Counted from the first letter of the stretch, positions 1,005 to 38,891 are shown. The stretch is 40,054 nucleotides of DNA from Candidatus Bathyarchaeota archaeon B24-2 (GCA_002490245.1 PCNA01000003.1:1-40054); one strand, 5' to 3'. The notes: generated by a model from the letters alone, not told the origin. Numbers and translations are program-made.

Positions 1005-1146
1005 CTCTTCAGGCTCCTGGAGCTAACTGTAAAGCCCTCCGTTGGGGGGCGGAGCAGTTAGTTCTAAGAGCTATGAAAGATGGTCGAGCAGAGTTTGGTT
1101 GTTCGGGCTTAGACTCAGCTTGGGGCAATCAGCATTTTTATCTTTT
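958..1146 (+). ncRNA. candidate novel rod-shaped structured RNA (168-nt hairpin plus oligo-T tail)
   Basis: Hand-folded pairings: 958-969/1114-1125 (12 perfect bp), 974-991/1093-1110 (18 bp), tandem G-A/A-G at 992-993/1091-1092, and 994-1006/1078-1090 (13 bp). Then 1008-1011/1074-1077, 1012-1016/1068-1072, 1018-1029/1055-1066 and 1034-1040/1044-1050 closing a GUU loop. There are 12 G-U pairs on the + strand against one C-A mismatch. TATA-like boxes lie at 928-937 and 944-954, and T5 and T4 runs at 1135-1146. Confidence 0.5.
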
Positions 1147-1823: not shown

Positions 1824-1830
1824 AGGCCTT

Positions 1831-16787: not shown

Positions 16788-17141
16788 ATGGCTAAAGTAT
16801 CGAAGTTCGAGCTTTTGAGTGGAGAAAAGAAGTTTACCGCCGTTAAATTAACCGTGGAGAACGCCGTCTTCATGCTTCTCAGCGAGGATGAAGAGAGCCT
16901 CGGAACACTAGCCGTAGCGATCCCACAGAAAGGCGGTATGCTCGGTCCGTCGATCTCCTCTGTTCTTCTAGGCAACCGTGAATCCATGCTTACGAGGATG
17001 CTAGCTGAGCGGCTTGCACATTTAACCGGAAAGATGAGCCTAGTGTCTCTCTTCGCTAGAACGGTATACGGCATGGAGGCCGCTAAACTATACGCGAAGC
17101 TTTTTGACGGTGTTATGAAGGCTGAGGAGAGAAGTCTATGA
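16788..17141 (+). CDS. small protein translationally coupled to the UbiD-family gene (possible LpdD-like accessory or chaperone)
   Basis: 117 aa. Its stop overlaps the UbiD ATG (ATGA at 17138-17141). My recollection of LpdD similarity is weak. Confidence 0.5.
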   Translation: MAKVSKFELLSGEKKFTAVKLTVENAVFMLLSEDEESLGTLAVAIPQKGGMLGPSISSVLLGNRESMLTRMLAERLAHLTGKMSLVSLFARTVYGMEAAKLYAKLFDGVMKAEERSL

Positions 17142-18481
17142 GCCTTAGAGGGTTCCTCTCTGAAATGGAGGAGCGTCGAGAGGTAGTCCATATCGAGGAA
17201 TCCGTCTCTCCTCGGTTTGAGGTCTCAAAGCTAGCTATGGAGTTCGACGGAGGACCTATACTATTCTTCGAGAACGTCGAGGGAAAGAAGGTCGTCGTGA
17301 ACGTATGTGGAAGTCGGGATAGGATATGCCTTGCCTTAAAGTCAAGGCGCCAAGACCTTCATAGAAAGCTCGTTACCTCCATGCACTACTTGAGAACTCC
17401 TGAGGTAGTCGATTCGGCTCCCTCTCAAGAAGTCGAGGAACCCGATTTAGGAGATATACCTATCCTAACACACTTCGAGAAGGACGGTGGCCCATACATA
17501 ACTTCAGGTGTTATATACGCTAGAAGCTCTAAGCTAGGAGTCGAGAACGTTTCCATTCATAGGCTTCAAGTTCTAGACGACTCGACCCTAGCCATAAGGC
17601 TTGTTCCGAGGCATCTATACAAGTTGTGGATGGCCCATAAGATGGAGAAAAAAGACTTGGAAGTCTCGGTCTCTGTCGGCGTCCACCCAGCAGTTCATCT
17701 AGCAGCCGCAAGCTCACCGCCGTTCGGCGTAAACGAGTTCCATATAGCGAACAGCCTTTTAGCCGGAGAACTTAAACTGGTTAAATGCTTGAAGGTGGAT
17801 GCCTACGCTCCTGCCGAAGCGGAATTGATCATCGAAGGCATAATCTCATGGGAGAGGGAGGCGCTGGAAGGCCCTCTCGTGGATATTCTAGGCACATACG
17901 ACGTCCAGAGAATGCAGCCGATAGTCGAAGTTAAGGCTGTAACGCACAGGAAAGACTATGTATACCAAGCGATCGTCCCTTCGAGCATGGAGCACAAGCT
18001 ACTTATGGGTCTCCCTAGAGAGGCTTTGATCTGGGAGGCTGTCTCTAAGGTCGTTCCTGAGGTTTATGGCGTCAGGTTGACTATGGCTGGAGGTGGATGG
18101 CTGCACGCCGTGGTCTCGATAAGGAAGCAGAGGGAGGGAGACGGAAAGAACGCTCTTCTCGCGGCGCTTGCAGCGCATCCAAGCCTAAAGCACGTTGTCG
18201 TAGTGGACGAAGACATAGACGTTTACGATAGCGAGGCGGTCGAGTGGGCTATAGCTACGAGGTTTCAGGCAGATAGGGACCTCATAGTGGTGAAAGACGT
18301 GAGGGGGTCGACGCTCGACCCCTCCTCCGACCAAGAGAGAGTCCTAACTTCGAAGGTCGGGGTCGACGCGACCAAACCTATGGATAAGCCTAAAGAGAAG
18401 TTTGAGCCTGCGACTATACCATCGACGAGTAGGATAGAAGGGCTTATCGAGAGTTTAAGGAAGCGGTTAGCTATAAGGTGA
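17138..18481 (+). CDS. UbiD-family decarboxylase, probably trans-anhydromevalonate 5-phosphate decarboxylase
   Basis: 447 aa with UbiD-like length and layout. It is convergent (2-nt gap) with the aconitase-X genes of the archaeal mevalonate pathway. Confidence 0.65.
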   Translation: MSLRGFLSEMEERREVVHIEESVSPRFEVSKLAMEFDGGPILFFENVEGKKVVVNVCGSRDRICLALKSRRQDLHRKLVTSMHYLRTPEVVDSAPSQEVEEPDLGDIPILTHFEKDGGPYITSGVIYARSSKLGVENVSIHRLQVLDDSTLAIRLVPRHLYKLWMAHKMEKKDLEVSVSVGVHPAVHLAAASSPPFGVNEFHIANSLLAGELKLVKCLKVDAYAPAEAELIIEGIISWEREALEGPLVDILGTYDVQRMQPIVEVKAVTHRKDYVYQAIVPSSMEHKLLMGLPREALIWEAVSKVVPEVYGVRLTMAGGGWLHAVVSIRKQREGDGKNALLAALAAHPSLKHVVVVDEDIDVYDSEAVEWAIATRFQADRDLIVVKDVRGSTLDPSSDQERVLTSKVGVDATKPMDKPKEKFEPATIPSTSRIEGLIESLRKRLAIR

Positions 18482-18483
18482 AG

Positions 18484-19659
18484 TCAACTTTCACATGCCT
18501 TCTCGACGCACTCGCGAAGCGAGGCTAGAGAGACTTCGACTCGATTCATGTTCGGCGCATAATACGCCGTCTTAGCCGAGTTCGTTAACAGAGAGTCTAT
18601 ACCCAACTCCTCAATCCAGCTTACGATGATGCAGGTATCGCATAAAACCTTTCCACCGGCACGCTCGATGATTTCCACATACTCCTTCGACGTTCTTTTG
18701 ACGTGACGGGACGTGCACACCCATAATCGAACGTCTTCCCTCACTTTCTTGCCGTAGAGAATGCTCGCAATCTCCTTTATCTCTGAGTATGAGCAGTGCG
18801 GGCATCCTATGAAAACTAGGTCTGGCTTCTCGACCTCAGATGATATGTCGCTGAGAGAGTTCTTTAGGTCCCTTTCTCCGACGCTTATCTTCTCTTGAGG
18901 AAGAGAACTCGACTTCTGAGATAGGATGAAACGTGAAACCATACCGCTTGAGGCTAAGGCTGCCCCGAGCTGCTTTAACTCCCTCTCTTTCGGGCTTTTA
19001 AGACCTTGAATCACAGGTATTTCGTCGCCTAGGACTTTCCCTAGATGTATTCCTAAGACCCCGAACTTCTCCTCGCTTCTTAAGTCAGCGTCCACGGTAA
19101 CCATAACTTTACCTTCCCTTTCCTCCGGCCTATGCATCCCGTAATTCGGCGTCGCACCGATTATAGCAGAGGCTAAGGCGCTTGGGCCACCCTCCCTGTT
19201 CGTCCACGAGCCTAACACGGAGTTCGCATAAACCACGGCGGAGGATTCAGCCCAAGAGAGGTGGACGTTCCTCGGAGGCTTACTTATGTAATATGGAGTG
19301 CACGAGAGGGTTTGCTTAACGCCGAGGTCTTCGTAAAGCCTAAGAATCCTTTTCTGAGCGTTCAACCTATGCTCCGTTAACCTCATGAGTTGAGGTCTCT
19401 CTAGGTCGAAGGCCGCCGGATTTAAGGTTGCGGGAGCCTTAACTTTAACGCCTGAAGCGGCTAGCTCCTCCAGAAACTCTGTAGCCGCATCGCCGAGGGT
19501 CTTGTAAGATACACCGGAGATATGTGCCGAGTGTATGGGTATAAGCCTATCTGCCTTGAATAGGTCTCCCAGTTTAACGAGGATCCTCATAGCTACCTGT
19601 ATAGCCCAGCCATACTCACCGTCTAAGGCCCTCTCCTCATCCTTGGTTAGGTACACCAC
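18484..19659 (-). CDS. aconitase X catalytic (large) subunit, probable phosphomevalonate dehydratase
   Basis: 391 aa in the DUF521-like size class. It overlaps the small-subunit gene by 1 nt. Confidence 0.65.
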   Translation of the reverse strand: MVYLTKDEERALDGEYGWAIQVAMRILVKLGDLFKADRLIPIHSAHISGVSYKTLGDAATEFLEELAASGVKVKAPATLNPAAFDLERPQLMRLTEHRLNAQKRILRLYEDLGVKQTLSCTPYYISKPPRNVHLSWAESSAVVYANSVLGSWTNREGGPSALASAIIGATPNYGMHRPEEREGKVMVTVDADLRSEEKFGVLGIHLGKVLGDEIPVIQGLKSPKERELKQLGAALASSGMVSRFILSQKSSSLPQEKISVGERDLKNSLSDISSEVEKPDLVFIGCPHCSYSEIKEIASILYGKKVREDVRLWVCTSRHVKRTSKEYVEIIERAGGKVLCDTCIIVSWIEELGIDSLLTNSAKTAYYAPNMNRVEVSLASLRECVEKACES

Positions 19660-20066
19660 TACATCCTCCTAAATACCGTAACGGTTCCTGCCTCCCCATC
19701 GACTTCGACTATATCTGAAGAACGGATCTTTGTTAGGTCGATATGGTCTACCATCGGGATAGACCCTATGATGGCGCCTACAACAACCACGGGATCGGCT
19801 AGCTCGTTCACTATGGCCTTAGGAGCCCTCCCTCTCTTAGCTAGGGTGTATAGGGTATAGCTTCCAACGGTCGAGCCACGGCCGTGGGGAAAGCAGAGTA
19901 TCTTGCCGGTTACTACCGTGCCTCGTAGATCGTGGCCCTCCTCGATTATCCTTCCAGTATTCACGTCAACCCCCTTAAGAAGGTTTAAAGGCGTGCTCGA
20001 AACTAAGGCCTTTCCTCTAGCTTTGCCTTCGACTATAGGACGTCCTTTGAGGATTATCTTCTTCAT
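19659..20066 (-). CDS. aconitase X swivel (small) subunit, probable phosphomevalonate dehydratase
   Basis: 135 aa in the DUF126-like size class with GRGSTVGSY. It lies immediately upstream of the large subunit. Confidence 0.6.
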   Translation of the reverse strand: MKKIILKGRPIVEGKARGKALVSSTPLNLLKGVDVNTGRIIEEGHDLRGTVVTGKILCFPHGRGSTVGSYTLYTLAKRGRAPKAIVNELADPVVVVGAIIGSIPMVDHIDLTKIRSSDIVEVDGEAGTVTVFRRM

Positions 20067-28115: not shown

Positions 28116-28958
28116 TTAAATCGGTAAATGCAACCAGCTAAATACGCCTATCATCTTTAACCCCATGTAGACCATGACTGCTATGAAGACGTACCTTAAC
28201 TGTTTAGCTGGAAGCCTATGAGCCGTCCTGACGCCTACTTGAGCCATGGGAACGCTTGTCCCCGCGAGGAGTATCCACTGTAGAAGGTTCACGTAGCCGA
28301 TCGAATATTCTGGTAGTCCTGATACACCTAACCCCTCGATTATGTAGGAGGTTACCCCGCCGATGGAAGTGAATATCATCATGGCGGTCGAAGTACCTAC
28401 TGCTTGATGCATCCTGAACTTCAGTATAACGACCATCACGGGAACCATCAGAACCCCGCCTCCTATCCCGATCAGACCACATGCAAACCCTAAGGGAAGC
28501 CCCCAAAGAAAATAGGTGAACAGGTTTTTTGTCGGTTCCTCTGTGATCTTTGGAGGTTTAGCAGTCAGCATTCTTACCGCACCGGCTAAAATCGCGAGAC
28601 CGAATATGGTCGTTAGGATTCTGCCAGGGAGATGTGCTGCAACGTATCCGCCTAATAACGAGCTAAACGCGCCGGTAACTCCCAGAACGATTCCGGCTCT
28701 CCATAACACGGCTCCCTTTCTGGTGTGGCCTATCGCCCCACTCAGGGCCGTCGGTAGAACCACAAGGAGGTTTGTGCCGAAAGCCACCCTTATGGCGATC
28801 GTCGGATCTATTCCCGTAGCCGTCAGTACCCAATATTGCACGGGTATCATTATGAAGCATCCGCCAACACCGAGTAAACCTGAGGCGAAGCCTACGCCGA
28901 TCCCCGTTATTAAAAGCGCGATTATGAAGGGTAACCCTATCATTTCAGCTTTCACCAC
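28116..28958 (-). CDS. TauE/SafE (TSUP) family permease, copy 1
   Basis: 280 aa with about 8 TM segments and two Gly-rich halves (GLLGVGGCFIMIP and GLIGIGGGVLMVP). Confidence 0.75.
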   Translation of the reverse strand: MVKAEMIGLPFIIALLITGIGVGFASGLLGVGGCFIMIPVQYWVLTATGIDPTIAIRVAFGTNLLVVLPTALSGAIGHTRKGAVLWRAGIVLGVTGAFSSLLGGYVAAHLPGRILTTIFGLAILAGAVRMLTAKPPKITEEPTKNLFTYFLWGLPLGFACGLIGIGGGVLMVPVMVVILKFRMHQAVGTSTAMMIFTSIGGVTSYIIEGLGVSGLPEYSIGYVNLLQWILLAGTSVPMAQVGVRTAHRLPAKQLRYVFIAVMVYMGLKMIGVFSWLHLPI

Positions 28959-29034
28959 ACCTCACTTTAAATCTTAACGAGAGAAGTTTGCCTCGATTCT
29001 ATTTTTGACCGTTAAACTGAAGGCTTCAGGGATC

Positions 29035-29100
29035 CTATAGAATGCGGATGTTATAGGATGGATGAGAATCTGCGATTTCATAGCGTACTCCTCTCACCAT
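29035..29100 (-). CDS. 21-codon small ORF at a predicted leaderless start (speculative)
   Basis: My - strand translation is MVRGVRYEIADSHPSYNIRIL. The ATG at 29100 lies 19-32 nt downstream of GAAAAAAATAAATAT, a BRE/TATA-like box. It could instead be the 5' leader of the TauE gene. Confidence 0.2.
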   Translation of the reverse strand: MVRGVRYEIADSHPSYNIRIL

Positions 29101-29160
29101 TTATCACAACATGTAACAATATTTATTTTTTTCGTTACAATTTGTAACAATATAGATTCT
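29101..29160 (-). promoter_or_regulatory. promoter with flanking operator-like sites
   Basis: A perfect 15-bp palindrome GTTACAATTTGTAAC lies at 29134-29148. The 11-mer TGTAACAATAT is repeated at 29112-29122 and 29143-29153, 31 bp apart. The A/T box at 29119-29132 sits between them. Confidence 0.5.
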
Positions 29161-29230
29161 CAATTCTCGGTGGATAAAATTTGAGAGGAACCTTAGAAGA
29201 AGGGATTGTAGAATAGGTCTAAGAGTCATA

Positions 29231-29255
29231 AAGGCTAGGAGGCGTAAAAAGCCTT
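29231..29255 (-). terminator. hairpin plus T5 tract directly after the TauE-2 stop
   Basis: The - strand reads AAGGCTTTTTACGCCTCCTAGCCTT, a 6-bp stem (AAGGCT/AGCCTT) with a T5 run. Confidence 0.4.
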
Positions 29256-30020
29256 CTAGAATAAGGACTCGACGTATAGCTTCGCAGCTATGATGGAGAG
29301 AACTATGGCGAATAGATACTTCACCGTTTTATGCTTAAACTTTCTGGTCATTAGATGGGAGCCCGTAAAGGCCCCTGCAAGAACAATTAAGGTTAGACCT
29401 AAAAACCATGGTATGTCGATTATGATGTGCCCAAGCGTGGCGTGAACGATGAAGCTGACGAGAACGCCTGCATTAACGCAGAAAACAGAGACCGCTGCAG
29501 CGTTTTTATGTTTTAAACCTAAGATTAGAAGCGCTGGGAGTATGATGCTGCCTCCACCTCTACCCACCATTCCTCCGACAAAGCCTATCGATGCCCCAAC
29601 CACCACACTTATTAAAACCCTCGTTCTCCTCGAGTATTCACCTTTCGGACGGAGACCGAGAAACGATTGGGCTACACCGAACGTAGTTATCAAAGCGAAT
29701 ACGAAGAGTATTACTCTATCGGAGACTATACCCGTGAAGGTTGCGCCCAGCGGCGCACTTATTAGTAGAGGCACAGCTATCGGGAGGGCAGCCTTCAAAT
29801 CGATTAATCTAGCCTTAAAATAATTGATGGAAGCAACCGTAGTGGATACAAACGAGAGCCATAGAGCCAACGATACAGCACTTTTAAGGGGCATTCCAAG
29901 CCAATGAAAGGCTGGAGTGTAGATTTGGCCTCCTCCCAATCCTATCGCCGGGAAAACGAAGGAAACCAAGGAGACTAGGAGGAAAGAGAGTAGGTAACAG
30001 AGCTCATTCATATCAATCAT
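29256..30020 (-). CDS. TauE/SafE (TSUP) family permease, copy 2
   Basis: 254 aa multi-TM protein with GLGGGQIYTP and GRGGGSIILP. It starts 14 nt downstream of the SPASM radical SAM gene. Confidence 0.75.
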   Translation of the reverse strand: MIDMNELCYLLSFLLVSLVSFVFPAIGLGGGQIYTPAFHWLGMPLKSAVSLALWLSFVSTTVASINYFKARLIDLKAALPIAVPLLISAPLGATFTGIVSDRVILFVFALITTFGVAQSFLGLRPKGEYSRRTRVLISVVVGASIGFVGGMVGRGGGSIILPALLILGLKHKNAAAVSVFCVNAGVLVSFIVHATLGHIIIDIPWFLGLTLIVLAGAFTGSHLMTRKFKHKTVKYLFAIVLSIIAAKLYVESLF

Positions 30021-30034
30021 CTAGACTATTTATG

Positions 30035-31525
30035 TTAGGGTGAAGTCACCGTTATCTTGCGTTCTTCCTTTACCTCGCTGGCCGGGTATCCTTTTAAGGC
30101 ATCGAAGGCTATTTCTCTCCAGTATCTTTCATTTAGTCTACATCCGGGGTCTGGGCCTTGTAAGTCGTTGAAGTAGGCGTAAGCCCTAGCCCTGCAGCCA
30201 CCACATATATACTTATATTCGCATTCTCCGCATCCCTTAAAGGAGTCTCTGTTTCTTATCTGTTTAAGTATAGGCGAGTTTCTCCAGATGTCTATAAGCC
30301 TCTGCTCTTTGATGTTCCCCACTTTTATAGGAATAAATACGCATGGCTCGATGTCTCCGTTAGGCTCCATACCGCAGTAGAGGCGTCCAGCTCCGCATCC
30401 ACCGATAAATTCTGTTAGAGACTTCGTCCTTCCCTTCAGCATTTCCATGGCATCTCTGTTCGTGAAGTGTGTAGCCACTACAGGCCCGAAGGCGAACTTG
30501 AAGGACGTCACGGCATATTGGGGAGCTGTGGAGAAAACGTCTAGCCTACAGTCTTCATCTATGAGCTTCGAGTAGAGGAATTCTAACAGCTCCTCCCGTT
30601 CCTCCGGAGTTAAGTCTTGATCCACTATCTCCCTTCCTCTACTTACGGGAATGAAGTTAAAGACTATGAAACGCCTCGCATGAAGTTCTTTCTCGACGAA
30701 GTCTATGAGCTTCGGAATCTCTTTCAGGTTGTAGTGGGTTGCGGTCGTCGCGACACCGGTATCTAAACCGACCTTAACGCAGTTTTTTATTCCTTCCACG
30801 GCTCTTCTCCAAGCTCCACGTATACCTCTAAATTCGTCATGGGTCCTCTCGAAGCCGTCTAGAGAGATCTCGACGTACTCAACACCCGCTTCTTTCATCT
30901 TCCTTGCAACGCTCTCGGTTATTAGAGTTCCGTTGGAGGCTACGGAAACATAGAACTCTTTATCGGCCGCGTATTTGGCCACCTCGAAGAAGTCTTTTCT
31001 CATCAAGGGTTCTCCGCCGGAGAAGGAGAGAGCGACGACTCCAGCATCAGCAAATTCGTCTATAGCTTTCTTCGCCTCTTCGGTGGTTAACTCGTCAGGT
31101 GAGGGCTTCGACCCTGCGTTTTCATAGCAGTGTTTACATCTTAAGTTACATTGCTTGGTAAAGTTCCAGACTATGAGGAAGGGAGCTGCCGTCGTTTGAG
31201 GCCTCTGCACGCCATAGTAGCCTATGCCTTCAAGGATGTTGGCTATACCCCTCCTAACGACGGGGAGTTTAAGCGACTCTATCATCTGTTCCTTTGAGAC
31301 GCCGAAGGATTCGGAGCCTCTATCTAAGGCTAGCTTAACTATCAGATAGGCAAGTTTCTCTTGAAAACTTAACTTTTCAGCCTCACCTACATACTTTTTT
31401 AGGGCAACCTCCAACTTACTGCCTTTCTCAGTTCGCTTTGAAACCCATTTCAAGAGGCTTCTAGAGATCGGGTTGCCAAGCCATCTTTTCACGGTGTTTG
31501 CTACAAGGTCTGCCTCATGCATCAT
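30035..31525 (-). CDS. radical SAM enzyme with a C-terminal SPASM domain and an N-terminal extension of about 110 aa
   Basis: 496 aa with CNLRCKHCY (CxxxCxxC) and GGEPL. The SPASM cysteines are CGAGRLYC...EPC...CGECEYKYICGGCRARAY. Confidence 0.8.
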   Translation of the reverse strand: MMHEADLVANTVKRWLGNPISRSLLKWVSKRTEKGSKLEVALKKYVGEAEKLSFQEKLAYLIVKLALDRGSESFGVSKEQMIESLKLPVVRRGIANILEGIGYYGVQRPQTTAAPFLIVWNFTKQCNLRCKHCYENAGSKPSPDELTTEEAKKAIDEFADAGVVALSFSGGEPLMRKDFFEVAKYAADKEFYVSVASNGTLITESVARKMKEAGVEYVEISLDGFERTHDEFRGIRGAWRRAVEGIKNCVKVGLDTGVATTATHYNLKEIPKLIDFVEKELHARRFIVFNFIPVSRGREIVDQDLTPEEREELLEFLYSKLIDEDCRLDVFSTAPQYAVTSFKFAFGPVVATHFTNRDAMEMLKGRTKSLTEFIGGCGAGRLYCGMEPNGDIEPCVFIPIKVGNIKEQRLIDIWRNSPILKQIRNRDSFKGCGECEYKYICGGCRARAYAYFNDLQGPDPGCRLNERYWREIAFDALKGYPASEVKEERKITVTSP

Positions 31526-32892
31526 CTTCCCCTCATATAGTTTACGACCGTTTTGATGGCGTCCTTCACGAAGATGAATTGCCTATCCTTTATCCATCTC
31601 CAGATAACCTTAGGTCTAAGGTAAAAACTGAGGTAAGCTTTCTGTAAAAGCGATTTTAGCTGTCTCGCCGTTAGGTTTTTAAGCTTCATAACAGGGTCTA
31701 TAACCGTGTATTTAGACCAGTCCTTAGTCAACAATAGACCGTTTTTCAGGGCGAAATCGAAGATCGGAGTACCTGGATAGGGGGTTAAGATCGAGAACTG
31801 AGCATAGTCTAGATTCAATTTTTTGGCGAAGTTTATCGTCTGTTTGATCGTTTGTATGGTGTCTTCTGGGAAGCCGAGTATGAAGGAGCCTAAAACCTGC
31901 ATTCCAGCCTCCTTCACGGTCTTAACAGCTTTTTTAGCTTGCTCCAAAGTTATCCTTTTACCTATAGAGTCTAAGATTTTCTGGCTGCCTGACTCTATGC
32001 CTAGATAGAGAACCCAGCATCCCGCCCGCTTCATCTTTTCGGCTAGCTTCCTAGTTATCGTGTCTACCCGTGAGGAGGCAGACCAAGCGATGTCTAAGCC
32101 CTCTTTAATTATTTTATCGCAGATCTCTTCAGCCCTCTTACGGTTAAGCGTGAAGGTGTCGTCCATAAGCTCTATATCCCTTATCTTGTAGTCATCGTGG
32201 ATGATTCTTATTTCTTCCAACACATTTCTGGGGCTTCTACCTCTCCAGCGGCAACCGAACAAACGTGAAGACGAGCAGAAGGAGCAGCCGAACGGGCATC
32301 CTCTGCTTGTGATCATCGTCGCATACTTTACACCGTTAAACTGGTAGAGGTCTATCGGAAGCAGGTCTCTACTCGGGAAAGGGATGCTATCTATGTCTTT
32401 GATGAAGGGTCTAGGTTCGTTATCTATTATCTGACCGTTCTTCCTGAAGGTTATGCCCCGCACTTCATCTAACGGAGCGTTCTTCTCGATAGCTTTCGCC
32501 AGCTCTTGAACCGTCTCTTCCCCCTCACCCTTAACGATTACGTCGACGTATCTACACTCCTCCAAAGTCTCCTTCGGTAGGAACGTTACGTGAGGGCCGC
32601 CCATAACTACTGTGCAGTCTTCTCTTACCTCCTTAGCGACCTTAGCTACGGCGTAGGCTTGATATATCGAAGACGTTACGGAAGTTATTCCCACTATATC
32701 GGGGTTAAAGGACTTCAGCTCCCTTCTTAAGTCTTCCAACGTATAGTTTAAAGCAGCGGAGTCGATTATCTTCACTTTATGCTCCTTTCTCAGGACAGAG
32801 GCTAGGTAAGCTAGACCTAACGGTGGAGAAGAAGAGCCGAAAGTGGAAGCCACCGCGGATTTGTATGGAGGAGAAACTAGGCATACATTCAT
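31522..32892 (-). CDS. B12-binding-domain radical SAM enzyme (class B / COG1032-like)
   Basis: 456 aa with an N-terminal Rossmann-like domain (VVMGGPHVTF), then RGCPFGCSFC. It overlaps both neighbouring genes by 4 nt. Confidence 0.8.
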   Translation of the reverse strand: MNVCLVSPPYKSAVASTFGSSSPPLGLAYLASVLRKEHKVKIIDSAALNYTLEDLRRELKSFNPDIVGITSVTSSIYQAYAVAKVAKEVREDCTVVMGGPHVTFLPKETLEECRYVDVIVKGEGEETVQELAKAIEKNAPLDEVRGITFRKNGQIIDNEPRPFIKDIDSIPFPSRDLLPIDLYQFNGVKYATMITSRGCPFGCSFCSSSRLFGCRWRGRSPRNVLEEIRIIHDDYKIRDIELMDDTFTLNRKRAEEICDKIIKEGLDIAWSASSRVDTITRKLAEKMKRAGCWVLYLGIESGSQKILDSIGKRITLEQAKKAVKTVKEAGMQVLGSFILGFPEDTIQTIKQTINFAKKLNLDYAQFSILTPYPGTPIFDFALKNGLLLTKDWSKYTVIDPVMKLKNLTARQLKSLLQKAYLSFYLRPKVIWRWIKDRQFIFVKDAIKTVVNYMRGR

Positions 32893-34418
32893 CTCTTTAC
32901 TTCAACCCTCTCCACGCTTATCGGTTTAGGCATAAAGGCACCGTAAACTCCCCTAGCCTTCCATTCAACGATCTTTACGAATAGCCAGTAAAAGAAAGAC
33001 GATATCCTACTATACCACCTACCTTTAAAGTAGGAGTGTATCATAACTTTAGTCCACTTTATATCATGTCTTAAACATTTTATTAAAAGCTCCCTCTGTA
33101 AATCGTTCATCTGCTCGACCGTGAACCAGTCCTCATCCTTCAGCCTTCCGAGGGGAACGAAGAAGAGGGGGACTATTAAGCTTTTAAAATCTTTAAGGTC
33201 GTCCATCAGCTCGATCGTCTTAATCACGTCCTCATCGGTCTCTTCAGGCAGCCCGGTTATCAGAGTGCATGCAGGCACAAGGTTATTATCCGTCATTATA
33301 CCAGCAGCCGTCTTAACGACCTCCGGCCACTGCTCAGGCTTGAACGGCCGAGCCTTTGCAGGCATAACCTTCTTTACGAGCTCTGGTGAGCCTGTTTCTA
33401 TGCCCACTTCAGCTCCCCACCACTCTTGGTTTTCATCCAATATTATCTCGGCGACGTCTTCAACCAACATCGGATCGGTCGCCACAGCAGCCATCGACGT
33501 GTGACTCCAACTCAGCTGATTAACGTATCTTTTACATAGCTTATGTAGCTTCAACACTTTTTTCCTGTCAGGTATAACGCTTCTCGAACCATAGAGTAGA
33601 ACGTCTTCAGCATGTATCACCGAGTATTTTAAGCCTGCATCCGTGTTTACTTTAAGTTCTTTCTCGATCTTCTCGTAGGGATACCAGCGTAGAGGCCTCA
33701 AGGTAACGCTGCAGAAGGCGCAGCCCCGACAGCAGCCCCTCCCGATCTCGATTAAACCGTTTACGGAGGGGTTCTTGATTTCAGGTATCTCGTCTACGCT
33801 CGGAGACTCGTGTATACTCACCTCGTAAAACCTTGGAAGACTCTTTCCCTCGATAGCTCTTCTAACTATCTCACCAACCACCTTCTCGGCTTCACCGTCT
33901 ATAACGCAGTCTATTCCATGGTCTTCCGTAAACTTAGGTTTGAGTTTAAGTTGCCATGCGCCGGGTCCTCCGACTATTATCTTGAGGCCACGTTTCTTAG
34001 CTTCCACGACCTCGGGCTTCTCGAGCAGTATTCGAAAATACTTCGCGAGATAGGGTTCTCCTGTTTGGAGTATCCGGGAGAAGGTTGAGGAGGAGGGGCC
34101 TAGACCGAACGGGTCCATAACGTGAATGCCTAATACCTTAGCGTCAGATATATAGCGCTTCAGATGGTCTGGGTCTACGGTCAGGACTTCGAAGCCTTCG
34201 TTTAACAGTTGAGCCTCTATCTTTCTAAGTCCATAAGGGGCTTCTAGCGGTATACCGTCCACGTTCTTTATAGGAGGAAAGAACAGAAGCTTAAAAAACC
34301 ATTCTGGCACGACGTTTGGGGGAGCGGTTGTCCCGAAACCTAGGAACTCGTTTTGGTGGTAGTTACTCATCAAAGTCCTATCGGCGGTCAATACGACCTC
34401 GGGCCTCGTGCATCCCAC
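32889..34418 (-). CDS. radical SAM enzyme with a B12-binding-like N-domain (archaeal uncharacterised family)
   Basis: 509 aa with LTADRTLMSNY...FLGF at the N-terminus, IIVGGPGAW, and then GRGCCRGCAFCS (CxxxCxxC). Confidence 0.75.
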   Translation of the reverse strand: MGCTRPEVVLTADRTLMSNYHQNEFLGFGTTAPPNVVPEWFFKLLFFPPIKNVDGIPLEAPYGLRKIEAQLLNEGFEVLTVDPDHLKRYISDAKVLGIHVMDPFGLGPSSSTFSRILQTGEPYLAKYFRILLEKPEVVEAKKRGLKIIVGGPGAWQLKLKPKFTEDHGIDCVIDGEAEKVVGEIVRRAIEGKSLPRFYEVSIHESPSVDEIPEIKNPSVNGLIEIGRGCCRGCAFCSVTLRPLRWYPYEKIEKELKVNTDAGLKYSVIHAEDVLLYGSRSVIPDRKKVLKLHKLCKRYVNQLSWSHTSMAAVATDPMLVEDVAEIILDENQEWWGAEVGIETGSPELVKKVMPAKARPFKPEQWPEVVKTAAGIMTDNNLVPACTLITGLPEETDEDVIKTIELMDDLKDFKSLIVPLFFVPLGRLKDEDWFTVEQMNDLQRELLIKCLRHDIKWTKVMIHSYFKGRWYSRISSFFYWLFVKIVEWKARGVYGAFMPKPISVERVEVKR

Positions 34419-34459
34419 CTCTAAGTGATCCTTGCCATGTAAAGATTCAGAATGGAAAC

Positions 34460-34492
34460 AAATATATACTTTTCTATTACATTTTGTAGTAG
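34460..34492 (+). promoter_or_regulatory. shared divergent promoter; imperfect palindrome between the TATA box and the Lrp ATG
   Basis: AAATATATAC (34460-34469) lies about 25-30 nt upstream of the ATG at 34493. CTATTACATTTTGTAGTAG (34474-34492) pairs at 7 of 9 positions. Its core TTACA-N3-TGTA matches the core of the 29134-29148 palindrome. Confidence 0.45.
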
Positions 34493-35062
34493 ATGCCGCG
34501 TATAGACGAGCTAGACAAAAAGATAATAGCCATACTTCAGAAGGATGGAAGGGCCTCGCTTACAGATATAGGTAGGAAGCTCGGTCTCTCCCATGTCAGT
34601 ATTAGGAAAAGGATAGAAAAACTCTACGAGAAGGGTGTTAAGGTAACCGCTGGCCTCGACGCCAGAAAATTCGGTTTCCGTATAGCGATAGTGAACGTCG
34701 AAGCTGAAGGACATGAACGCCTTCTAGAACTATTAAAGAAGTTCTCCGATTGCCCAAGGATGGTGTTCATGACGACGACTACCGGAGACTACAACCTCAT
34801 GACCGTCATGATAGCAGAAGACGCCGACACCTTAAATTCGATAATCGAATTCTGTTCTGCAAGAAACCAGAAGGGGATAAGACGGTCAGAGGCGATAGTT
34901 GGTGAAGCACCCATACTTCCCAAGTATCTACCTATAAGGATCGTGGCAGAGAAGATGTTAGAAGACGCACCCTGCGGAGTGAACTGCGGTAGATGCGCAC
35001 GGTATAAAGAAGGGAAATGTCTCGCCTGTCCGGCGACGAAGTATTATCGCGGCCCCCTCTAA
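34493..35062 (+). CDS. Lrp/AsnC-family transcriptional regulator with a C-terminal Cys-rich extension
   Basis: 189 aa with an N-terminal HTH (LDKKIIAILQKDGRASLTDIGRKLGLSHVSIRKRI) and a RAM-like middle. The tail is CGVNCGRCARYKEGKCLAC (Cys161/165/168/176/179). Confidence 0.8.
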   Translation: MPRIDELDKKIIAILQKDGRASLTDIGRKLGLSHVSIRKRIEKLYEKGVKVTAGLDARKFGFRIAIVNVEAEGHERLLELLKKFSDCPRMVFMTTTTGDYNLMTVMIAEDADTLNSIIEFCSARNQKGIRRSEAIVGEAPILPKYLPIRIVAEKMLEDAPCGVNCGRCARYKEGKCLACPATKYYRGPL

Positions 35063-35084: not shown

Positions 35085-35411
35085 GTGAGTAGGGATAAAG
35101 TTATCCGCTTGAAAAGCTGGGAGGAATTTAAGCGTCTGGCTAAAGAAGTTAGGCCAAGGTCTATAGTCTACAATATAGAGCAAAGCGTCCCCGCTAGGGA
35201 GCTCACAGGCCTACGACTGATACTAGCAGCTCAGGGAACTCAATATGTCTTCCTAGACTTCCCGAAGGGGATGAAGCTTAGGGAAACCGGAATCTCACTT
35301 CACAGGGATAAAAACGGAAACCGCTATCTGAGAGACGAGGATGTAATAGACTTCGTTAAGAAGCAGCTCGATAGAGAAGACTTGACGGTTTGCTCTTACT
35401 GGACGATCTAA
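35085..35411 (+). CDS. hypothetical protein
   Basis: 108-aa ORF with a GTG start, 22 nt downstream of the Lrp-like gene. No motif was recognised. Confidence 0.45.
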   Translation: MSRDKVIRLKSWEEFKRLAKEVRPRSIVYNIEQSVPARELTGLRLILAAQGTQYVFLDFPKGMKLRETGISLHRDKNGNRYLRDEDVIDFVKKQLDREDLTVCSYWTI

Positions 35412-36578: not shown

Positions 36579-38891
36579 TTGGGGTCGACTTTGTCGAGAA
36601 GGGCTTTAAGGGTCATTAAGGCCTTTTCTTCAAGTCTTAGACTCAAGATCCTTAACCTCCTTCTCCTTAGAGGACAGCTCTCCTACACCGAGATAATGAA
36701 CGAACTTAAGCTCAACCCCGTAAGAGACGCGGGCAGGTTCGCCTATCACCTTAAACTCCTGTTGGAGTCAGACCTTATAGAGCTAGACCCTTCGACGAAG
36801 AGGTACAGGCTTACGGACCTAGGACGCAGGGTGATAGACGTAACCGAAGATATAGAGTCTAAGGTCTCCCCACATAGAAGGATGCTTGTAAGGACCAGTA
36901 AGGCCTCACTCGAAGAGTTCGATAGGAATAAGATCGTGAATTCCCTAGTGAAAGAGGCGAACGTTCCCTTAGAGGAGGCGCAGAGGGTAGCTAGGGAAGC
37001 AGAGCGGCGACTACAAAGGTTTAAAACAAGGTACTTAACCGCTCCACTCATCCGGGAGGTGGTGAACGCCGTCCTCCTAGAGAGGGGACTCGAAGAGTAT
37101 AGACATAAGCTTACTAGGTTGGGGCTCCCAGTCTACGACGTAACAAACCTCATAAAATCGGCTAGCGGTAGAGGGGTAGACGTGGATTCCATCGTCCGCT
37201 CCGCAGGTGAAAAGGTCTTCGCAGAATACACCTTACTCAACGTGCTCCCAAGAGACGTCGCAGACGCCCATCTCTCAGGAACCTTTCACATAGAGAACCT
37301 AGGAAACTGGATTCTCAAGCCCGACGGCTTCGTTCACGACTTAAGGTTTCTCTTCAGGTATGGAATCAGATTCGCCGATACATACTCCACGAAAACGATT
37401 TACCCGCCGCCTAAAAGCTATGAAGGGGCGTTACAGAGCCTAGTTAAACTGGTCTACGTTACCGCTGGTGAAGTGGTCGGCGAGCAGGCTTTACCCCACT
37501 TCAACGTCTTCCTAGCTCCGTTCATTAAGGGATTGAAGGAAGAGGAGATCCTAGAAGGTGTAAGAGGTTTCTTGACTATGGTTAACGGTATACAGGCAGA
37601 GTCTGGACCCGGCGTCTTATCCATAGGGTTAGACCTCTCGATCCCAAAGAGTCTCGCCGAGGAGGAGGCATACGGTATGGGAGGTGAAGCCCTCGGCGGC
37701 TACGCGGAATTTACGGACGAGAGCCTAACGTTAGCCTCAGCCTTCATGGAAGCTTTCCTAGAGCACTATAAAGGAAAACCGGGGATAAACGTCATACCGA
37801 TAGTTAACCTCCAAAAGGAAAATCTAAACGGTGAAGACGGTCTCCTCTATAAGGCGCATGAATTAGCGGCTGAGACCTCACTTCCCTTGTTTGCTGATCA
37901 GTCTAAGAGCAGAGGAGACTTAGTGTACATGGCCTCCGGTGTTAGGTTTAACTGTGATTGGACGGGTGATTGGGAGTTAGATACCCTCAGAGTAGGAGTA
38001 CTCGGAAGGGTCGACTTAAACCTGCCTCGACTATACTACGATAGCAGGGAGGAGGGTAGAAGGTTTGAGGTTCTGTTGGACGAGAGAGTAGAGATGGCTA
38101 TACGCGCTCTCGAAATAAAGTATAGAGCGATAAACCAGAGAGGAGAGGAGGGAGTGATCCCCTTCCTGTTTCATACATGGTCAGGTGACCGATACTTTCA
38201 TCTCAGAAACTCTATTCGCGTGTTGAGCATAGTGGGCTTGAACGAGGTGATCGCAGCGATCTTAGATCGTGAACTTAAGTATGGAGCCGAGGAAGCCCAT
38301 TTAGCAGAGAGAATACTCAAGCAGACCGTTAAGAGAATCGAAGAAAACGCTGGAGTATACAACGCGCGGGTAAGACTCTCCGCCTATCCCCATCCAGAAG
38401 CCGCCGAAAGGCTAGCCCGCCTCGACGTTGAGAGGTATGGGTGGTCTAAGGTTAAAGTTCAAGGCGACAAGGAGCATCCCATCTATACAGACTCAGGTTT
38501 GATTCCATTCTCCTCAGACATACCCTTAAAGACCAGACTTAGGTTTGAAGGTTTAATTCAGAAATACACGGGTGGAGGCCACTTAGCGGTGATACAGCTG
38601 GAAGACGTACAACATGAACCCGAAGAACTACTCTCCGCAACTATCACAGCGATCAAGGACTTCAACCTCAACCTATTCACGTATAATCTGGAGTCAACTT
38701 ACTGTCTAGCCTGCGGGAATAAAAGCTATGGGTCCCCCTTTAAGTGTCCTAAATGCGGTTCGGCAGACACCCTGGTCTATTACAGTCGACTGTTCGATAG
38801 GTACCTCCCCTTAAAATATTGGACAGAGGTTAGAGCATATCATAGACGATTCTATAAAAAATACAAGTTGAAGTCAGAGATTAAAGGCTAA
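36579..38891 (+). CDS. winged-helix + ATP-cone + NrdD-like domain fusion lacking the glycyl-radical glycine
   Basis: 770 aa with a TTG start. Residues about 10-90 look ArsR-like (LRLKILNLLLLRGQLSYTEIMNEL...RYRLTDLGRRV). Residues about 100-185 look ATP-cone-like. The body aligns by eye with the NrdD at 1831..3951 (GTFHIENLG vs GDFHIHDLG, FNVFLAPFI vs FDTYLAPFI, VDLNLPRLYY vs VTINLPRIGY). The zinc ribbon CLACG...CPKCG is kept. YSRLFDRYLPLKYW replaces YSRVVGYLRPVDQW. Confidence 0.8.
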   Translation: MGSTLSRRALRVIKAFSSSLRLKILNLLLLRGQLSYTEIMNELKLNPVRDAGRFAYHLKLLLESDLIELDPSTKRYRLTDLGRRVIDVTEDIESKVSPHRRMLVRTSKASLEEFDRNKIVNSLVKEANVPLEEAQRVAREAERRLQRFKTRYLTAPLIREVVNAVLLERGLEEYRHKLTRLGLPVYDVTNLIKSASGRGVDVDSIVRSAGEKVFAEYTLLNVLPRDVADAHLSGTFHIENLGNWILKPDGFVHDLRFLFRYGIRFADTYSTKTIYPPPKSYEGALQSLVKLVYVTAGEVVGEQALPHFNVFLAPFIKGLKEEEILEGVRGFLTMVNGIQAESGPGVLSIGLDLSIPKSLAEEEAYGMGGEALGGYAEFTDESLTLASAFMEAFLEHYKGKPGINVIPIVNLQKENLNGEDGLLYKAHELAAETSLPLFADQSKSRGDLVYMASGVRFNCDWTGDWELDTLRVGVLGRVDLNLPRLYYDSREEGRRFEVLLDERVEMAIRALEIKYRAINQRGEEGVIPFLFHTWSGDRYFHLRNSIRVLSIVGLNEVIAAILDRELKYGAEEAHLAERILKQTVKRIEENAGVYNARVRLSAYPHPEAAERLARLDVERYGWSKVKVQGDKEHPIYTDSGLIPFSSDIPLKTRLRFEGLIQKYTGGGHLAVIQLEDVQHEPEELLSATITAIKDFNLNLFTYNLESTYCLACGNKSYGSPFKCPKCGSADTLVYYSRLFDRYLPLKYWTEVRAYHRRFYKKYKLKSEIKG

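What the first reader, a model, noticed from the sequence alone, without database searches (positions are those of the whole stretch)
29256..34418. Translationally coupled operon of three radical SAM enzymes plus a TSUP permease: candidate uncharacterised pathway
Three consecutive genes with 4-nt overlaps encode three different radical SAM enzymes. The first is a 509-aa protein with a B12-binding-like N-domain. The second is a 456-aa class-B-type B12-binding enzyme. The third is a 496-aa enzyme with a SPASM twitch domain (PqqE/AhbD-like ...CGGCRARAY) and an N-terminal extension of about 110 aa. A TauE/TSUP permease follows after 14 nt, and a second TauE lies behind a regulated promoter. I cannot assign the set to a known pathway, but I see two hypotheses. 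(a) Lipid tailoring: the archaeal tetraether synthase (Tes/GDGT-MAS) is a radical SAM enzyme of about 500 aa with auxiliary clusters, and the GDGT ring synthases GrsA/GrsB are radical SAM enzymes that I recall, without certainty, as B12-binding-domain (class-B-like). (b) A RiPP- or cofactor-type pathway in which the SPASM enzyme crosslinks a peptide or small molecule, the B12 enzymes methylate or rearrange it, and the TSUP proteins move a sulfur-containing or anionic product.
Basis: partly seen in the sequence, partly recalled or inferred. Interest (0 to 1): 0.8.

Follow-up and report, generated by a model that had tools for sequence, protein, structure and literature searches.

The report
Archaeal tetraether lipid tailoring operon
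The three radical SAM genes are Bathyarchaeial versions of enzymes already known to decorate archaeal membrane-spanning lipids (a ring synthase Grs, a Gmm-like B12 enzyme and the cross-linking synthase Gms), so this is an ordinary new example of a published gene cluster rather than an unknown pathway.

Summary
Four minus-strand genes run 34418→29256, with two 4-nt overlaps and a 14-nt gap. They encode three different radical SAM enzymes and a TauE/TSUP permease.

The set does match a known system. Gene 1 is 49% identical (E=1e-134) to the genetically characterised Sulfolobus acidocaldarius GDGT ring synthase GrsA. Gene 3 is a GMGT synthase (Gms): an AhbD-like radical SAM/SPASM core plus a six-helix N-terminal extension. 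Homologues 65-70% identical to it are in the published Gms homologue list. Gene 2 is a B12-binding radical SAM enzyme that sits next to gms in several genomes, as the GMGT methylase Gmm does. I could not resolve its subfamily (Gmm, Cgm/Pgm or Ted).

A grs + gmm + gms cluster is already described in Thermococcus guaymasensis, and Bathyarchaeota are the largest published group of gms and gmm carriers.

The RiPP hypothesis has no support. The TSUP gene is not conserved next to the cluster. An AsnC-type regulator with an invariant Cys-rich tail is conserved beside gms.

Novelty is low: new members of known families.

The parts
32889..34418 (-). grs: GDGT ring synthase homologue, GrsA-like. It is a B12-type radical SAM enzyme with an N-terminal Rossmann-like domain and a CX3CX2C motif at C229/C233/C236.
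   Evidence: - It is 49% identical (68% positives, 384 bits, E=1e-134) to all 399 available residues of S. acidocaldarius GrsA WP_011278400.1 (Saci_1585).
- It is 46-51% identical to 10 reference GrsA proteins, which are 48-82% identical to one another.
- The cysteine motif is invariant in alignment A1.
31522..32892 (-). B12-binding radical SAM enzyme, Gmm-like. It is a candidate GMGT/GDGT alkyl-chain C-methylase, but its subfamily is unresolved.
   Evidence: - Pfam B12-binding (98 bits) plus Radical_SAM (104 bits).
- Best NCBIfam hits are BchE and HpnJ, both below cut-off.
- It shares a 4-nt overlap with both neighbours.
- Its orthologue (67-70% identity) lies directly upstream of gms in L089, L092 and L095.
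- It is only 24% identical to GrsA.
- The nearest named relative is a Methanopyrus sp. protein at 42% identity over the full length.
30035..31525 (-). gms: GMGT (H-GDGT) synthase homologue. It has a six-helix N-terminal domain, a radical SAM core (C126/C130/C133) and a SPASM domain with two auxiliary-cluster sites.
   Evidence: - The core is AhbD/NirJ-like but below cut-off (283 vs 500 bits).
- Homologues 65-70% identical to it (HDD71565.1, RLJ00028.1, KXB03463.1) are in the Gms homologue list of Li et al. 2024.
- The SPASM cysteines are invariant: C377-X12-G-X4-C395, C432X2C435X5C441X2C444, C462.
- The AlphaFold2 model (pTM 0.76) has six helices in residues 4-104, then the radical SAM core and the SPASM region. 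This matches the MoGms architecture.
29256..30020 (-). TauE/TSUP permease, 14 nt downstream of gms. It is probably co-transcribed, and its link to the lipid chemistry is unproven.
   Evidence: - PF01925, 116.7 bits; 14-nt spacer.
- No orthologue lies next to gms or grs in any of 95 loci.
- A different TauE-family gene lies two genes upstream of gms in L093/L094.
34493..35062 (+). Divergently transcribed Lrp/AsnC-type regulator with a conserved C-terminal Cys-rich tail (C161X3C165X2C168...C176X2C179). It is the probable regulator of the gms-containing unit.
   Evidence: - HTH_AsnC-type, 55 bits.
- Orthologues at 66-69% identity lie divergently upstream of the gms unit in L001, L092 and L093/L094. 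Only 1 of the 80 grs-anchored loci has one.
- All five tail cysteines are invariant.
34419..34492 (.). A 74-bp divergent intergenic region between grs and the regulator gene, containing an A/T-rich TATA-like box (aaatatata).
   Evidence: Read directly from the sequence. Promoter function is inferred.

Best explanation
This is a tetraether membrane-lipid tailoring operon of a Bathyarchaeion.

**Starting point.** Tes makes GDGT-0. Tes is encoded elsewhere, not in this window.

**The three enzymes act on the biphytanyl chains.**
- Grs (gene 1) is a B12-type radical SAM enzyme that forms cyclopentane rings.
- Gms (gene 3) is a radical SAM/SPASM enzyme with three [4Fe-4S] clusters and a helical N-terminal lipid-binding domain. 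It makes a C(sp3)-C(sp3) bridge between the two chains and so turns GDGT into GMGT (H-GDGT).
- Gene 2 is a B12-binding radical SAM enzyme. It most likely C-methylates the GMGT/GDGT chains, as Gmm does.

**Expression.** The 4-nt overlaps couple translation of the three genes. A divergent AsnC-type regulator with a Cys-rich tail probably controls transcription.

**What is shown.** Family membership of genes 1 and 3, domain content, and gene linkage.

**What is inferred.** The enzymatic activities in this organism, the methylase role of gene 2, the regulator's role, and any role of the TSUP permease. I consider TSUP incidental.
For: **Gene 1 is a Grs homologue.**
- 49% identity and E=1e-134 to characterised GrsA Saci_1585.
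- 46-51% identity to 10 GrsA references.

**Gene 3 is a Gms homologue.**
- The published definition is an AhbD homologue with an N-terminal extension of about 100 aa (COG4001). Li et al. describe a six-helix N-domain, a radical SAM domain, a bridging region and a SPASM domain with three clusters.
- All of these features are present here.
- Three homologues at 65-70% identity to gene 3 are in the published Gms list, with E=1e-105 to 1e-121.
- The taxonomic spread of its close homologues (Bathyarchaeia, Aenigmarchaeota, Hadarchaeota, Methanomethylicia, MSBL1, Asgard) mirrors the published Gms distribution.

**The cluster matches published clusters.**
- In T. guaymasensis, gms clusters with grs and gmm, and gms-gmm clusters occur in several phyla.
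- The same trio recurs in L092, and the B12-gms pair recurs in L089 and L095.
- Gms-family genes lie directly next to grs in at least 5 further loci, in other gene orders.
Against: - No reference sequence of Gmm, Cgm, Pgm or Ted was available. Gene 2's place in that family, and its chemistry (methylation or desaturation), therefore rest on domain content and gene neighbourhood only. Its superfamily is very large (20,769 cluster representatives at E<=1e-30).
- Linkage is facultative. Most grs homologues stand alone (about 65 of 80 loci). gms orthologues stand alone in L001-L005, and gene 2 orthologues stand alone in L090 and L091.
- GrsA versus GrsB specificity is not resolved.
- The GrsA reference sequences were truncated at about 400 aa.
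- No lipid data exist for this organism.
Confidence: 0.82

Rival explanations
1. The system is the same lipid-tailoring operon, but gene 2 is not a methylase. It would be a Ted-like tetraether desaturase or a B12 radical SAM enzyme with another, uncharacterised activity on GDGT/GMGT chains.
For: - Divergent Gmm homologues in Bathyarchaeota include Ted, a desaturase found next to grs.
- Many Bathyarchaeota carry several 'Gmm2' paralogues of untested function.
- Gene 2's subfamily could not be resolved here.
Against: - Homologues of Ted were collected at >=500 aa, and ted overlaps an AttH-like hydratase gene. Gene 2 is 456 aa and no AttH gene is present.
- Its tight, conserved pairing with gms is the published signature of Gmm.
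Confidence: 0.2
2. The genes form a tetrapyrrole-modifying pathway. An AhbD/NirJ-like enzyme and a BchE-like enzyme would act on a heme, siroheme or corrinoid-type substrate.
For: The best NCBIfam hits are AhbD (283 bits) and NirJ2 for gene 3, and BchE (296 bits) for gene 2.
Against: - All of these hits are far below the curated cut-offs (500 and 481 bits).
- Gene 3 carries the Gms-specific N-terminal domain, and its close homologues are in the published Gms list.
- Gene 1 is a Grs.
- No tetrapyrrole genes lie in the window.
Confidence: 0.03
3. The genes form a RiPP or small-molecule cofactor pathway. The SPASM enzyme would cross-link a peptide, the B12 enzymes would methylate it, and the TSUP permeases would export it.
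For: - The best PDB sequence hits of gene 3 are peptide maturases (SkfB, PqqE, CteB).
- The N-terminal extension has the size of a peptide-recognition element.
Against: - Those PDB hits cover only the generic radical SAM core.
- The extension is an all-helical six-helix domain like that of Gms.
- No precursor ORF was seen in the two spacers read, 34419-34492 and 28959-29255; no dedicated small-ORF scan was run.
- The TSUP gene is not conserved beside the cluster.
- Genes 1 and 3 are positively identified as lipid enzymes.
Confidence: 0.02
4. The adjacency is fortuitous. Three independently acting housekeeping lipid genes would have been brought together in one lineage, with no functional coupling.
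For: - Each gene is most often found alone in other genomes.
- The full trio was seen only in close relatives: L092, and a 5,624-bp contig inferred from matching contig lengths.
Against: - The 4-nt overlaps indicate co-translation.
- Pairings recur in different orders and in different lineages. These are grs-gms in L018, L032, L036, L044 and L066, gene 2 then grs in L034, and B12-gms in L089 and L095.
- The same trio is clustered in a euryarchaeon.
- All three enzymes act on one substrate pool.
Confidence: 0.08

Closest known systems
The grs-gmm-gms gene cluster of Thermococcus guaymasensis (Garcia et al. 2024, PNAS, PMC11214058; Gms WP_062369926.1, Gmm WP_062369928.1)
   Same: It has the same three enzyme types in one cluster: a GDGT ring synthase, a B12-binding radical SAM enzyme and the AhbD-like Gms with an N-terminal extension. 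The predicted products are the same: cross-linked, methylated and cyclised tetraethers.
   Different: - The window comes from a Bathyarchaeion.
- The genes overlap by 4 nt.
- Gene order relative to T. guaymasensis is unknown to me.
- Orthology of gene 2 to Tg-Gmm could not be tested.
- A TSUP permease and a Cys-tailed AsnC-type regulator flank the cluster here.
Gms from Methanothermococcus okinawensis (METOK_RS04425; Li et al. 2024, Nat Commun, PMC11186832), shown in vitro to convert GDGT-0 to GMGT-0
   Same: - The four-domain architecture matches: a six-helix N-domain, a radical SAM domain, a bridging region and a SPASM domain.
- Both have CX3CX2C plus cysteines for two auxiliary clusters, at similar residue numbers (MoGms C123/C127/C438; here C126/C130/C441).
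- Homologues 65-70% identical to gene 3 are in that paper's homologue list, at 40-44% identity to its query.
   Different: I made no direct sequence comparison with MoGms. The bridging and SPASM regions of the model have low confidence (pLDDT < 50).
GrsA (Saci_1585) of Sulfolobus acidocaldarius (Zeng et al. 2019, as reviewed in PMC13459092)
   Same: Gene 1 is 49% identical over the 399 residues available. It shares the PYGLRK(I/V)EA and GRGC..C.FC motifs, the N-terminal Rossmann-like domain and the radical SAM core.
   Different: The Bathyarchaeial proteins form a clade beside the crenarchaeal GrsA references. C-7 versus C-3 ring specificity is unknown.
The ted-hgs-grs cluster of Candidatus Bathyarchaeota B1_G15 (Garcia et al. 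2025, bioRxiv 10.1101/2025.10.20.683597)
   Same: It is a Bathyarchaeial cluster that pairs grs with a Gmm-related B12 radical SAM enzyme acting on GDGT chains.
   Different: In that cluster ted overlaps an AttH-like hydratase gene, and no gms is reported in the neighbourhood shown. Here gms is present, there is no AttH gene, and the B12 enzyme is shorter (456 aa).
AhbD / NirJ heme-pathway radical SAM enzymes, and Tes/GDGT-MAS (PDB 7tol)
   Same: AhbD and NirJ are the closest sequence families to the Gms core. Tes is a radical SAM/SPASM-type lipid C-C bond-forming enzyme with a similar mechanism.
   Different: - Gene 3 scores 283 bits against a 500-bit AhbD cut-off, and it carries the extra N-terminal domain.
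- Against Tes it scores only 61 bits, over the radical SAM core.
- It is therefore a member of neither family.

Membership tests
Gms (GMGT / H-GDGT synthase) | An AhbD-like radical SAM + SPASM core that is distinct from true AhbD | tested here: met
   The core has Radical_SAM, Fer4_12 and SPASM domains. AhbD is the best NCBIfam hit at 283 bits, below the 500-bit cut-off.
Gms (GMGT / H-GDGT synthase) | An N-terminal extension of about 100 aa (COG4001) that forms a separate six-helix domain | tested here: met
   The extension covers residues 1 to about 110 and is conserved across 16 homologues. The AlphaFold2 model has helices at 4-17, 19-28, 37-45, 54-73, 78-85 and 88-104. The COG4001 label itself could not be checked because no COG library was available.
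Gms (GMGT / H-GDGT synthase) | Cysteines for the radical SAM cluster plus two auxiliary [4Fe-4S] clusters | tested here: met
   C126, C130, C133, C377, C395, C432, C435, C441, C444 and C462 are invariant. C384 is conserved in 14 of the 16 sequences.
Gms (GMGT / H-GDGT synthase) | Strong similarity to a characterised Gms (authors' cut-off E<=1e-80, >=400 aa) and placement in the Gms clade | tested here: inconclusive
   The evidence is indirect. P0050, P0061 and P0071 (70, 67 and 65% identical to gene 3) are HDD71565.1, RLJ00028.1 and KXB03463.1. All three are in Li et al.'s Gms list, with E=4e-121, 1e-119 and 5e-105. I made no direct comparison with Tg-, Pf- or Mo-Gms and built no tree.
Gms (GMGT / H-GDGT synthase) | Converts GDGT to GMGT | not testable with these tools
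   This needs expression and LC-MS.
Grs (GDGT ring synthase) | Homology to S. acidocaldarius GrsA (authors' cut-off E<=1e-20, >=400 aa) | tested here: met
   Gene 1 is 509 aa. It is 49% identical over 400 aligned positions, with E=1e-134. It is 46-51% identical to 10 GrsA references. The gene 2 control reaches only 24% identity and 49 bits.
Grs (GDGT ring synthase) | N-terminal Rossmann-like (B12-type) domain + CX3CX2C radical SAM core | tested here: met
   The alignment with GrsA runs from residue 17 to residue 411, across both domains. C229, C233 and C236 are invariant. The Pfam B12-binding model itself does not hit.
Grs (GDGT ring synthase) | GrsA (C-7 rings) versus GrsB (C-3 rings) subclass | tested here: inconclusive
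   Identity to GrsA (49%) is nearer to the published 'clear GrsA' value (54%) than to the GrsB-type value (34%). No GrsB sequence was available, and the Bathyarchaeial clade sits beside the references.
Gmm (GMGT methylase) and relatives Cgm, Pgm, Ted | B12-binding domain + radical SAM domain, >=400 aa | tested here: met
   PF02310 at 98 bits and PF04055 at 104 bits; 456 aa.
Gmm (GMGT methylase) and relatives Cgm, Pgm, Ted | Gene clustered with gms | tested here: met
   It lies directly upstream of gms in the window, L089, L092 and L095.
Gmm (GMGT methylase) and relatives Cgm, Pgm, Ted | E<=1e-65 to Tg-Gmm (WP_062369928.1) and separation from the MoeK5 outgroup | not tested
   No Gmm, Cgm, Pgm, Ted or MoeK5 sequence could be obtained. 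The nearest named relatives are uncharacterised: Methanopyrus sp. at 42% identity, plus Thermoprotei, Sedimentisphaerales, Geothermarchaeota and Borrarchaeum proteins.
Tes / GDGT-MAS (tetraether synthase) | Full-length similarity to MJ0619 (PDB 7tol) | tested here: not met
   Gene 3 scores 61 bits, over residues 115-325 only. Gene 1 has no hit to 7tol at E<=0.01, and gene 2 has none at E<=1e-5.
AhbD / NirJ (heme-pathway radical SAM) | Score above the curated equivalog cut-off | tested here: not met
   AhbD scores 283 vs 500 bits, NirJ2 280 vs 500 and NirJ 234 vs 515.
RiPP radical SAM/SPASM maturase | An adjacent precursor peptide gene and an RRE-type (winged-helix) recognition domain | tested here: not met
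   The N-domain is all-helical, with no three-stranded sheet. No conserved small ORF recurs beside gms in the gene lists of the gms-anchored loci. Peptide-maturase NCBIfam hits are <=136 bits, against cut-offs of 340-725.

The most novel reading that the evidence does not exclude
**The B12 enzyme.** The 456-aa B12 radical SAM clade that is tightly coupled to gms in Bathyarchaeia may not be a Gmm-type methylase. It could carry out a chemically distinct, undescribed modification of GMGT or GDGT chains, by analogy with the unexpected desaturase Ted.

**The regulator.** The gms unit may also be controlled by a new class of Lrp/AsnC regulator that senses redox state or metal through its invariant CX3CX2C...CX2C tail. 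That would link membrane cross-linking to cellular redox or Fe-S status.
Probability: 0.15. Interest if true: 0.5.

Novelty: new member of a known kind. Interest (0 to 1): 0.2.

Why it matters
GMGT (H-GDGT), ring-bearing GDGTs and methylated GDGTs are used as palaeo-environmental biomarkers. Bathyarchaeia have been proposed, from gene surveys, to be their main source in peat and marine sediments. This window is a clean, apparently intact example of a translationally coupled grs-B12-gms operon from that group. It is a convenient candidate for heterologous expression, to test what Bathyarchaeial lipids look like. It does not open a new pathway. The only parts not already described are the accessory genes: the Cys-tailed AsnC-type regulator, the DGC-domain protein, ORF108 and the variable permeases.

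Tried and rejected
- **Tes orthology of the SPASM enzyme.** Rejected: 61 bits to 7tol, over the radical SAM core only.
- **Curated family assignment.** No cut-off was reached for any of the three enzymes.
- **PDB entry 9ccb as a functional lead.** It was the best PDB hit for genes 1 and 2, but it is MgmA, the MCR glutamine methylase. The hit shows only generic class-B similarity.
- **BDGT/PDGT glycerol-methylase idea for gene 2.** The one literature search I ran on this returned no paper that names such an enzyme, and I had no way to test the idea.
- **Obtaining Gmm, Ted or Cgm sequences.**
  - PMC11214058 has no supplementary text held.
  - The 2025 preprint supplement gives only locus tags.
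  - The AlphaFold pdb files in Li et al. have no SEQRES records.
- **Reaching a characterised Gmm through the exhaustive representative search plus cluster look-ups.** Only uncharacterised relatives were found.
- **Using grs-adjacent B12 paralogues (L027, L050) as stand-ins for Ted.** L027 has no AttH-like neighbour, so there was no ground truth.
- **TSUP as a conserved cluster member.** No orthologue was found in any locus.
- **The 2-oxoacid:ferredoxin oxidoreductase operon next to grs in 47 of 83 loci.** I judged this to be lineage synteny, not a functional link.

Full report
**1. Observation**

All four genes lie on the minus strand:

| Gene | Coordinates | Length |
|---|---|---|
| Gene 1 | 34418..32889 | 509 aa, GTG start |
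| Gene 2 | 32892..31522 | 456 aa |
| Gene 3 | 31525..30035 | 496 aa |
| TauE/TSUP gene | 30020..29256 | 254 aa |

- There are two 4-nt overlaps and a 14-nt spacer (sequence).
- Pfam gives Radical_SAM only for gene 1, and B12-binding + Radical_SAM for gene 2.
- Gene 3 has Radical_SAM + Fer4_12 + SPASM, with the radical SAM core starting near residue 116.
- Both permeases are PF01925.
- NCBIfam places none of the three enzymes above a curated cut-off. The best hits are AhbD (283 vs 500 bits) for gene 3 and BchE (296 vs 481) for gene 2. Gene 1 gives only weak B12-radical-SAM and MiaB-like hits.
- The window is a 40,054-bp JGI metagenome contig. Its best homologues are from Bathyarchaeia.
- The surrounding genes are ordinary housekeeping genes.

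**2. Gene 3 is a Gms, not Tes**

- Against PDB sequences, gene 3 matches GDGT-MAS/Tes (7tol) at only 61 bits, over the radical SAM core. The Tes idea fails.
- Its homologues are unusually conserved, at 60-87% identity. They occur in Bathyarchaeia, Aenigmarchaeota, Hadarchaeota, Methanomethylicia, MSBL1 and an Asgard family.
- Garcia et al. 2024 (PMC11214058) define the GMGT synthase Gms as an AhbD homologue with a 100-aa N-terminal extension (COG4001).
- They list Bathyarchaeota (188 sequences), Verstraetearchaeota, Hadesarchaea, DPANN and Asgard archaea among its carriers. This is the same architecture and the same distribution.
- Li et al. 2024 (PMC11186832) showed in vitro that Gms cross-links GDGT-0 to GMGT-0. 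They describe four domains: a six-helix N-domain, a radical SAM domain, a bridging region and a SPASM domain with three [4Fe-4S] clusters.

I tested these features here.
- An alignment of 16 homologues shows invariant C126/C130/C133.
- It also shows a complete SPASM signature: C377-X12-G390-X4-C395, then C432X2C435X5C441X2C444, then C462.
- An AlphaFold2 model (pTM 0.76) has exactly six helices in residues 4-104, then the β/α core and the SPASM region.
- Three homologues at 70, 67 and 65% identity to gene 3 (P0050, P0061, P0071) carry accessions HDD71565.1, RLJ00028.1 and KXB03463.1. All three appear in Li et al.'s source-data list of Gms homologues, with E=4e-121, 1e-119 and 5e-105.

**3. Gene 1 is a Grs**

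- The same source-data file contains a sheet of GrsA outgroup sequences, truncated at about 400 aa.
- Gene 1 is 49% identical (68% positives, 384 bits, E=1e-134) to S. acidocaldarius GrsA WP_011278400.1 over all 399 residues given.
- The gene 2 control reaches only 24% identity and 49 bits.
- Against ten GrsA references, gene 1 is 46-51% identical (E=1e-117 to 1e-139). The references themselves are 48-82% identical to one another. In a distance tree the Bathyarchaeial proteins form a clade beside them.
- The published criterion for a Grs homologue (E<=1e-20, >=400 aa) is met with a wide margin.
- GrsA versus GrsB specificity remains open.

**4. Gene 2 is Gmm-like, subfamily unresolved**

- Gene 2 is a canonical B12-binding radical SAM enzyme. 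Its orthologues keep a near-constant length of 456 aa in Bathyarchaeia.
- Garcia et al. found that in T. guaymasensis gms sits in a cluster with grs and a B12 radical SAM gene. They showed that gene to be the GMGT methylase Gmm. They also report gms-gmm clusters in several phyla.
- Gene 2 orthologues (67-70% identity) lie directly upstream of gms in L089, L092 and L095 as well as in the window.
- I could not obtain any Gmm, Cgm, Pgm, Ted or MoeK5 sequence.
- The exhaustive search shows a very large superfamily: 20,769 representatives at E<=1e-30, with the top 150 at 27-50% identity and the full-length single-domain hits at 38-50%.
- The nearest named relatives are uncharacterised: Methanopyrus sp. 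at 42% identity over the full length, plus Thermoprotei, Sedimentisphaerales, Geothermarchaeota and Borrarchaeum proteins.
- The related Bathyarchaeial enzyme Ted turned out to be a desaturase, not a methylase. The methylase role of gene 2 is therefore an inference from neighbourhood, not a demonstrated fact.

**5. Linkage**

I ran tblastn with the window proteins against 95 fetched loci and clustered the neighbours of grs.
- grs is usually alone. In 47 of 83 loci it sits divergently from a four-subunit 2-oxoacid:ferredoxin oxidoreductase operon, which looks like lineage synteny.
- A gene 2-type gene lies directly next to grs in 7 loci.
- A Gms-family gene with the same N-terminal extension lies directly next to grs in at least 5 loci (7 by clustering). 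The gene orders differ: gms→grs in L032, L036, L044 and L066, and grs→gms in L018.

Contexts of gms orthologues:

| Locus | Context |
|---|---|
| Window | grs-B12-gms-TSUP |
| L092 | grs-B12-gms-FMN oxidoreductase |
| L089 | B12-gms |
| L095 | PadR-B12-gms |
| L093/L094 | TauE-DUF5752-ORF-gms-DGC |
| L001 | Usp-Na/H exchanger-gms-DGC |
| L002 to L005 | gms not linked to grs or a B12 gene (PadR directly downstream in L004/L005) |

The cluster is therefore facultative. The pairings recur in independent arrangements, as expected for enzymes that share one substrate pool.

**6. Accessory genes**

- The divergent AsnC-type gene (34493-35062) has orthologues at 66-69% identity, divergently upstream of the gms unit in L001, L092 and L093/L094. 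Only one of the 80 grs-anchored loci has one.
- Its C-terminal tail has five invariant cysteines: C161X3C165X2C168...C176X2C179.
- The window TSUP genes have no orthologue near gms or grs anywhere. Only a different TauE-family gene occurs, in L093/L094.
- I therefore treat the TSUP gene as co-transcribed but probably incidental.

**7. Verdict**

- The lipid-tailoring hypothesis is right in kind. The assignment of the SPASM enzyme to Tes is wrong, and the RiPP hypothesis is unsupported.
- The set matches an already characterised system: Grs + Gmm-like + Gms, acting on GDGT made by Tes.
- It is a new member of a known kind and of low interest.
- The open points are the exact chemistry of gene 2 and the role of the Cys-tailed regulator.

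Noticed in passing
window 34493-35062 (+); also L001 5612-6181, L092 1944-2504, L093 3900-4460: This Lrp/AsnC-type regulator (186-189 aa) has an invariant C-terminal CX3CX2C...CX2C...YRGxL tail. It is conserved at 66-69% identity, divergently upstream of gms-containing units in four different gene arrangements. It may be a metal- or Fe-S-sensing regulator of lipid cross-linking.
   Followed up: partly
window 28959-29255 (spacer upstream of the second TauE gene, 28116-28958): Repeated and inverted TTGTTAC / GTAAC elements (ttgttacaaattgtaac ... attgttacatgttgtga) flank an A-rich TATA-like box. This looks like an operator site for a separate transcription unit.
   Followed up: no
window 35085-35411 (+); L093 11756-12076, L094 8944-9264: This 108-aa ORF has no Pfam or NCBIfam hit. 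It has 60-61% identical homologues about 3.3 kb downstream of gms in L093/L094, so it is a real conserved gene of unknown function in the same neighbourhood.
   Followed up: partly
L001 9532-9864; L093 8424-8807 and 9222-9626; L089 5320-5724; L006 6390-6833: DGC-domain (PF08859, putative zinc-binding) genes recur directly downstream of or close to gms, grs and the B12 gene in several genomes. None is present in the window.
   Followed up: no
window 1146-3951 (-) and 36579-38891 (+): The window holds two anaerobic ribonucleotide reductase genes. One is a canonical ATP-cone NrdD with its radical SAM activase. The other (770 aa) resembles HTH-fused NrdD proteins seen in the related loci; its own domains were not scanned. 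A homologue of the second one (40-46% identity) lies within 10 kb of grs in about 11 Bathyarchaeial loci.
   Followed up: partly
window 17138-18481 (+), 18484-19659 (-), 19659-20066 (-): A UbiD-family decarboxylase lies next to aconitase X (a large ORF plus a small adjoining ORF). From my own knowledge, this resembles the archaeal-type mevalonate pathway pair (phosphomevalonate dehydratase and anhydromevalonate phosphate decarboxylase). That would be isoprenoid precursor supply about 13 kb from the lipid operon.
   Followed up: no
83 grs loci (L006-L088), upstream of the grs match: In about 47 of 83 loci, grs is divergent from a four-gene 2-oxoacid:ferredoxin oxidoreductase operon (γ 184 aa, δ 92 aa, α 410 aa, β 322 aa). 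This conserved synteny is absent from the window.
   Followed up: partly
L092 8294-10243: In the closest trio-bearing relative, the gene after gms is a 649-aa Oxidored_FMN/Pyr_redox_2 (old-yellow-enzyme / dienoyl-reductase-like) protein instead of TSUP. It is conceivably a double-bond reductase acting on lipid chains.
   Followed up: no
L029 (Krumholzibacteriaceae MAG), L059 (Sulfotelmatobacter MAG): Contigs binned into bacterial MAGs carry grs genes 56-63% identical to the window's gene. This is probably binning contamination by Bathyarchaeial contigs, although bacterial grs homologues have been reported.
   Followed up: no
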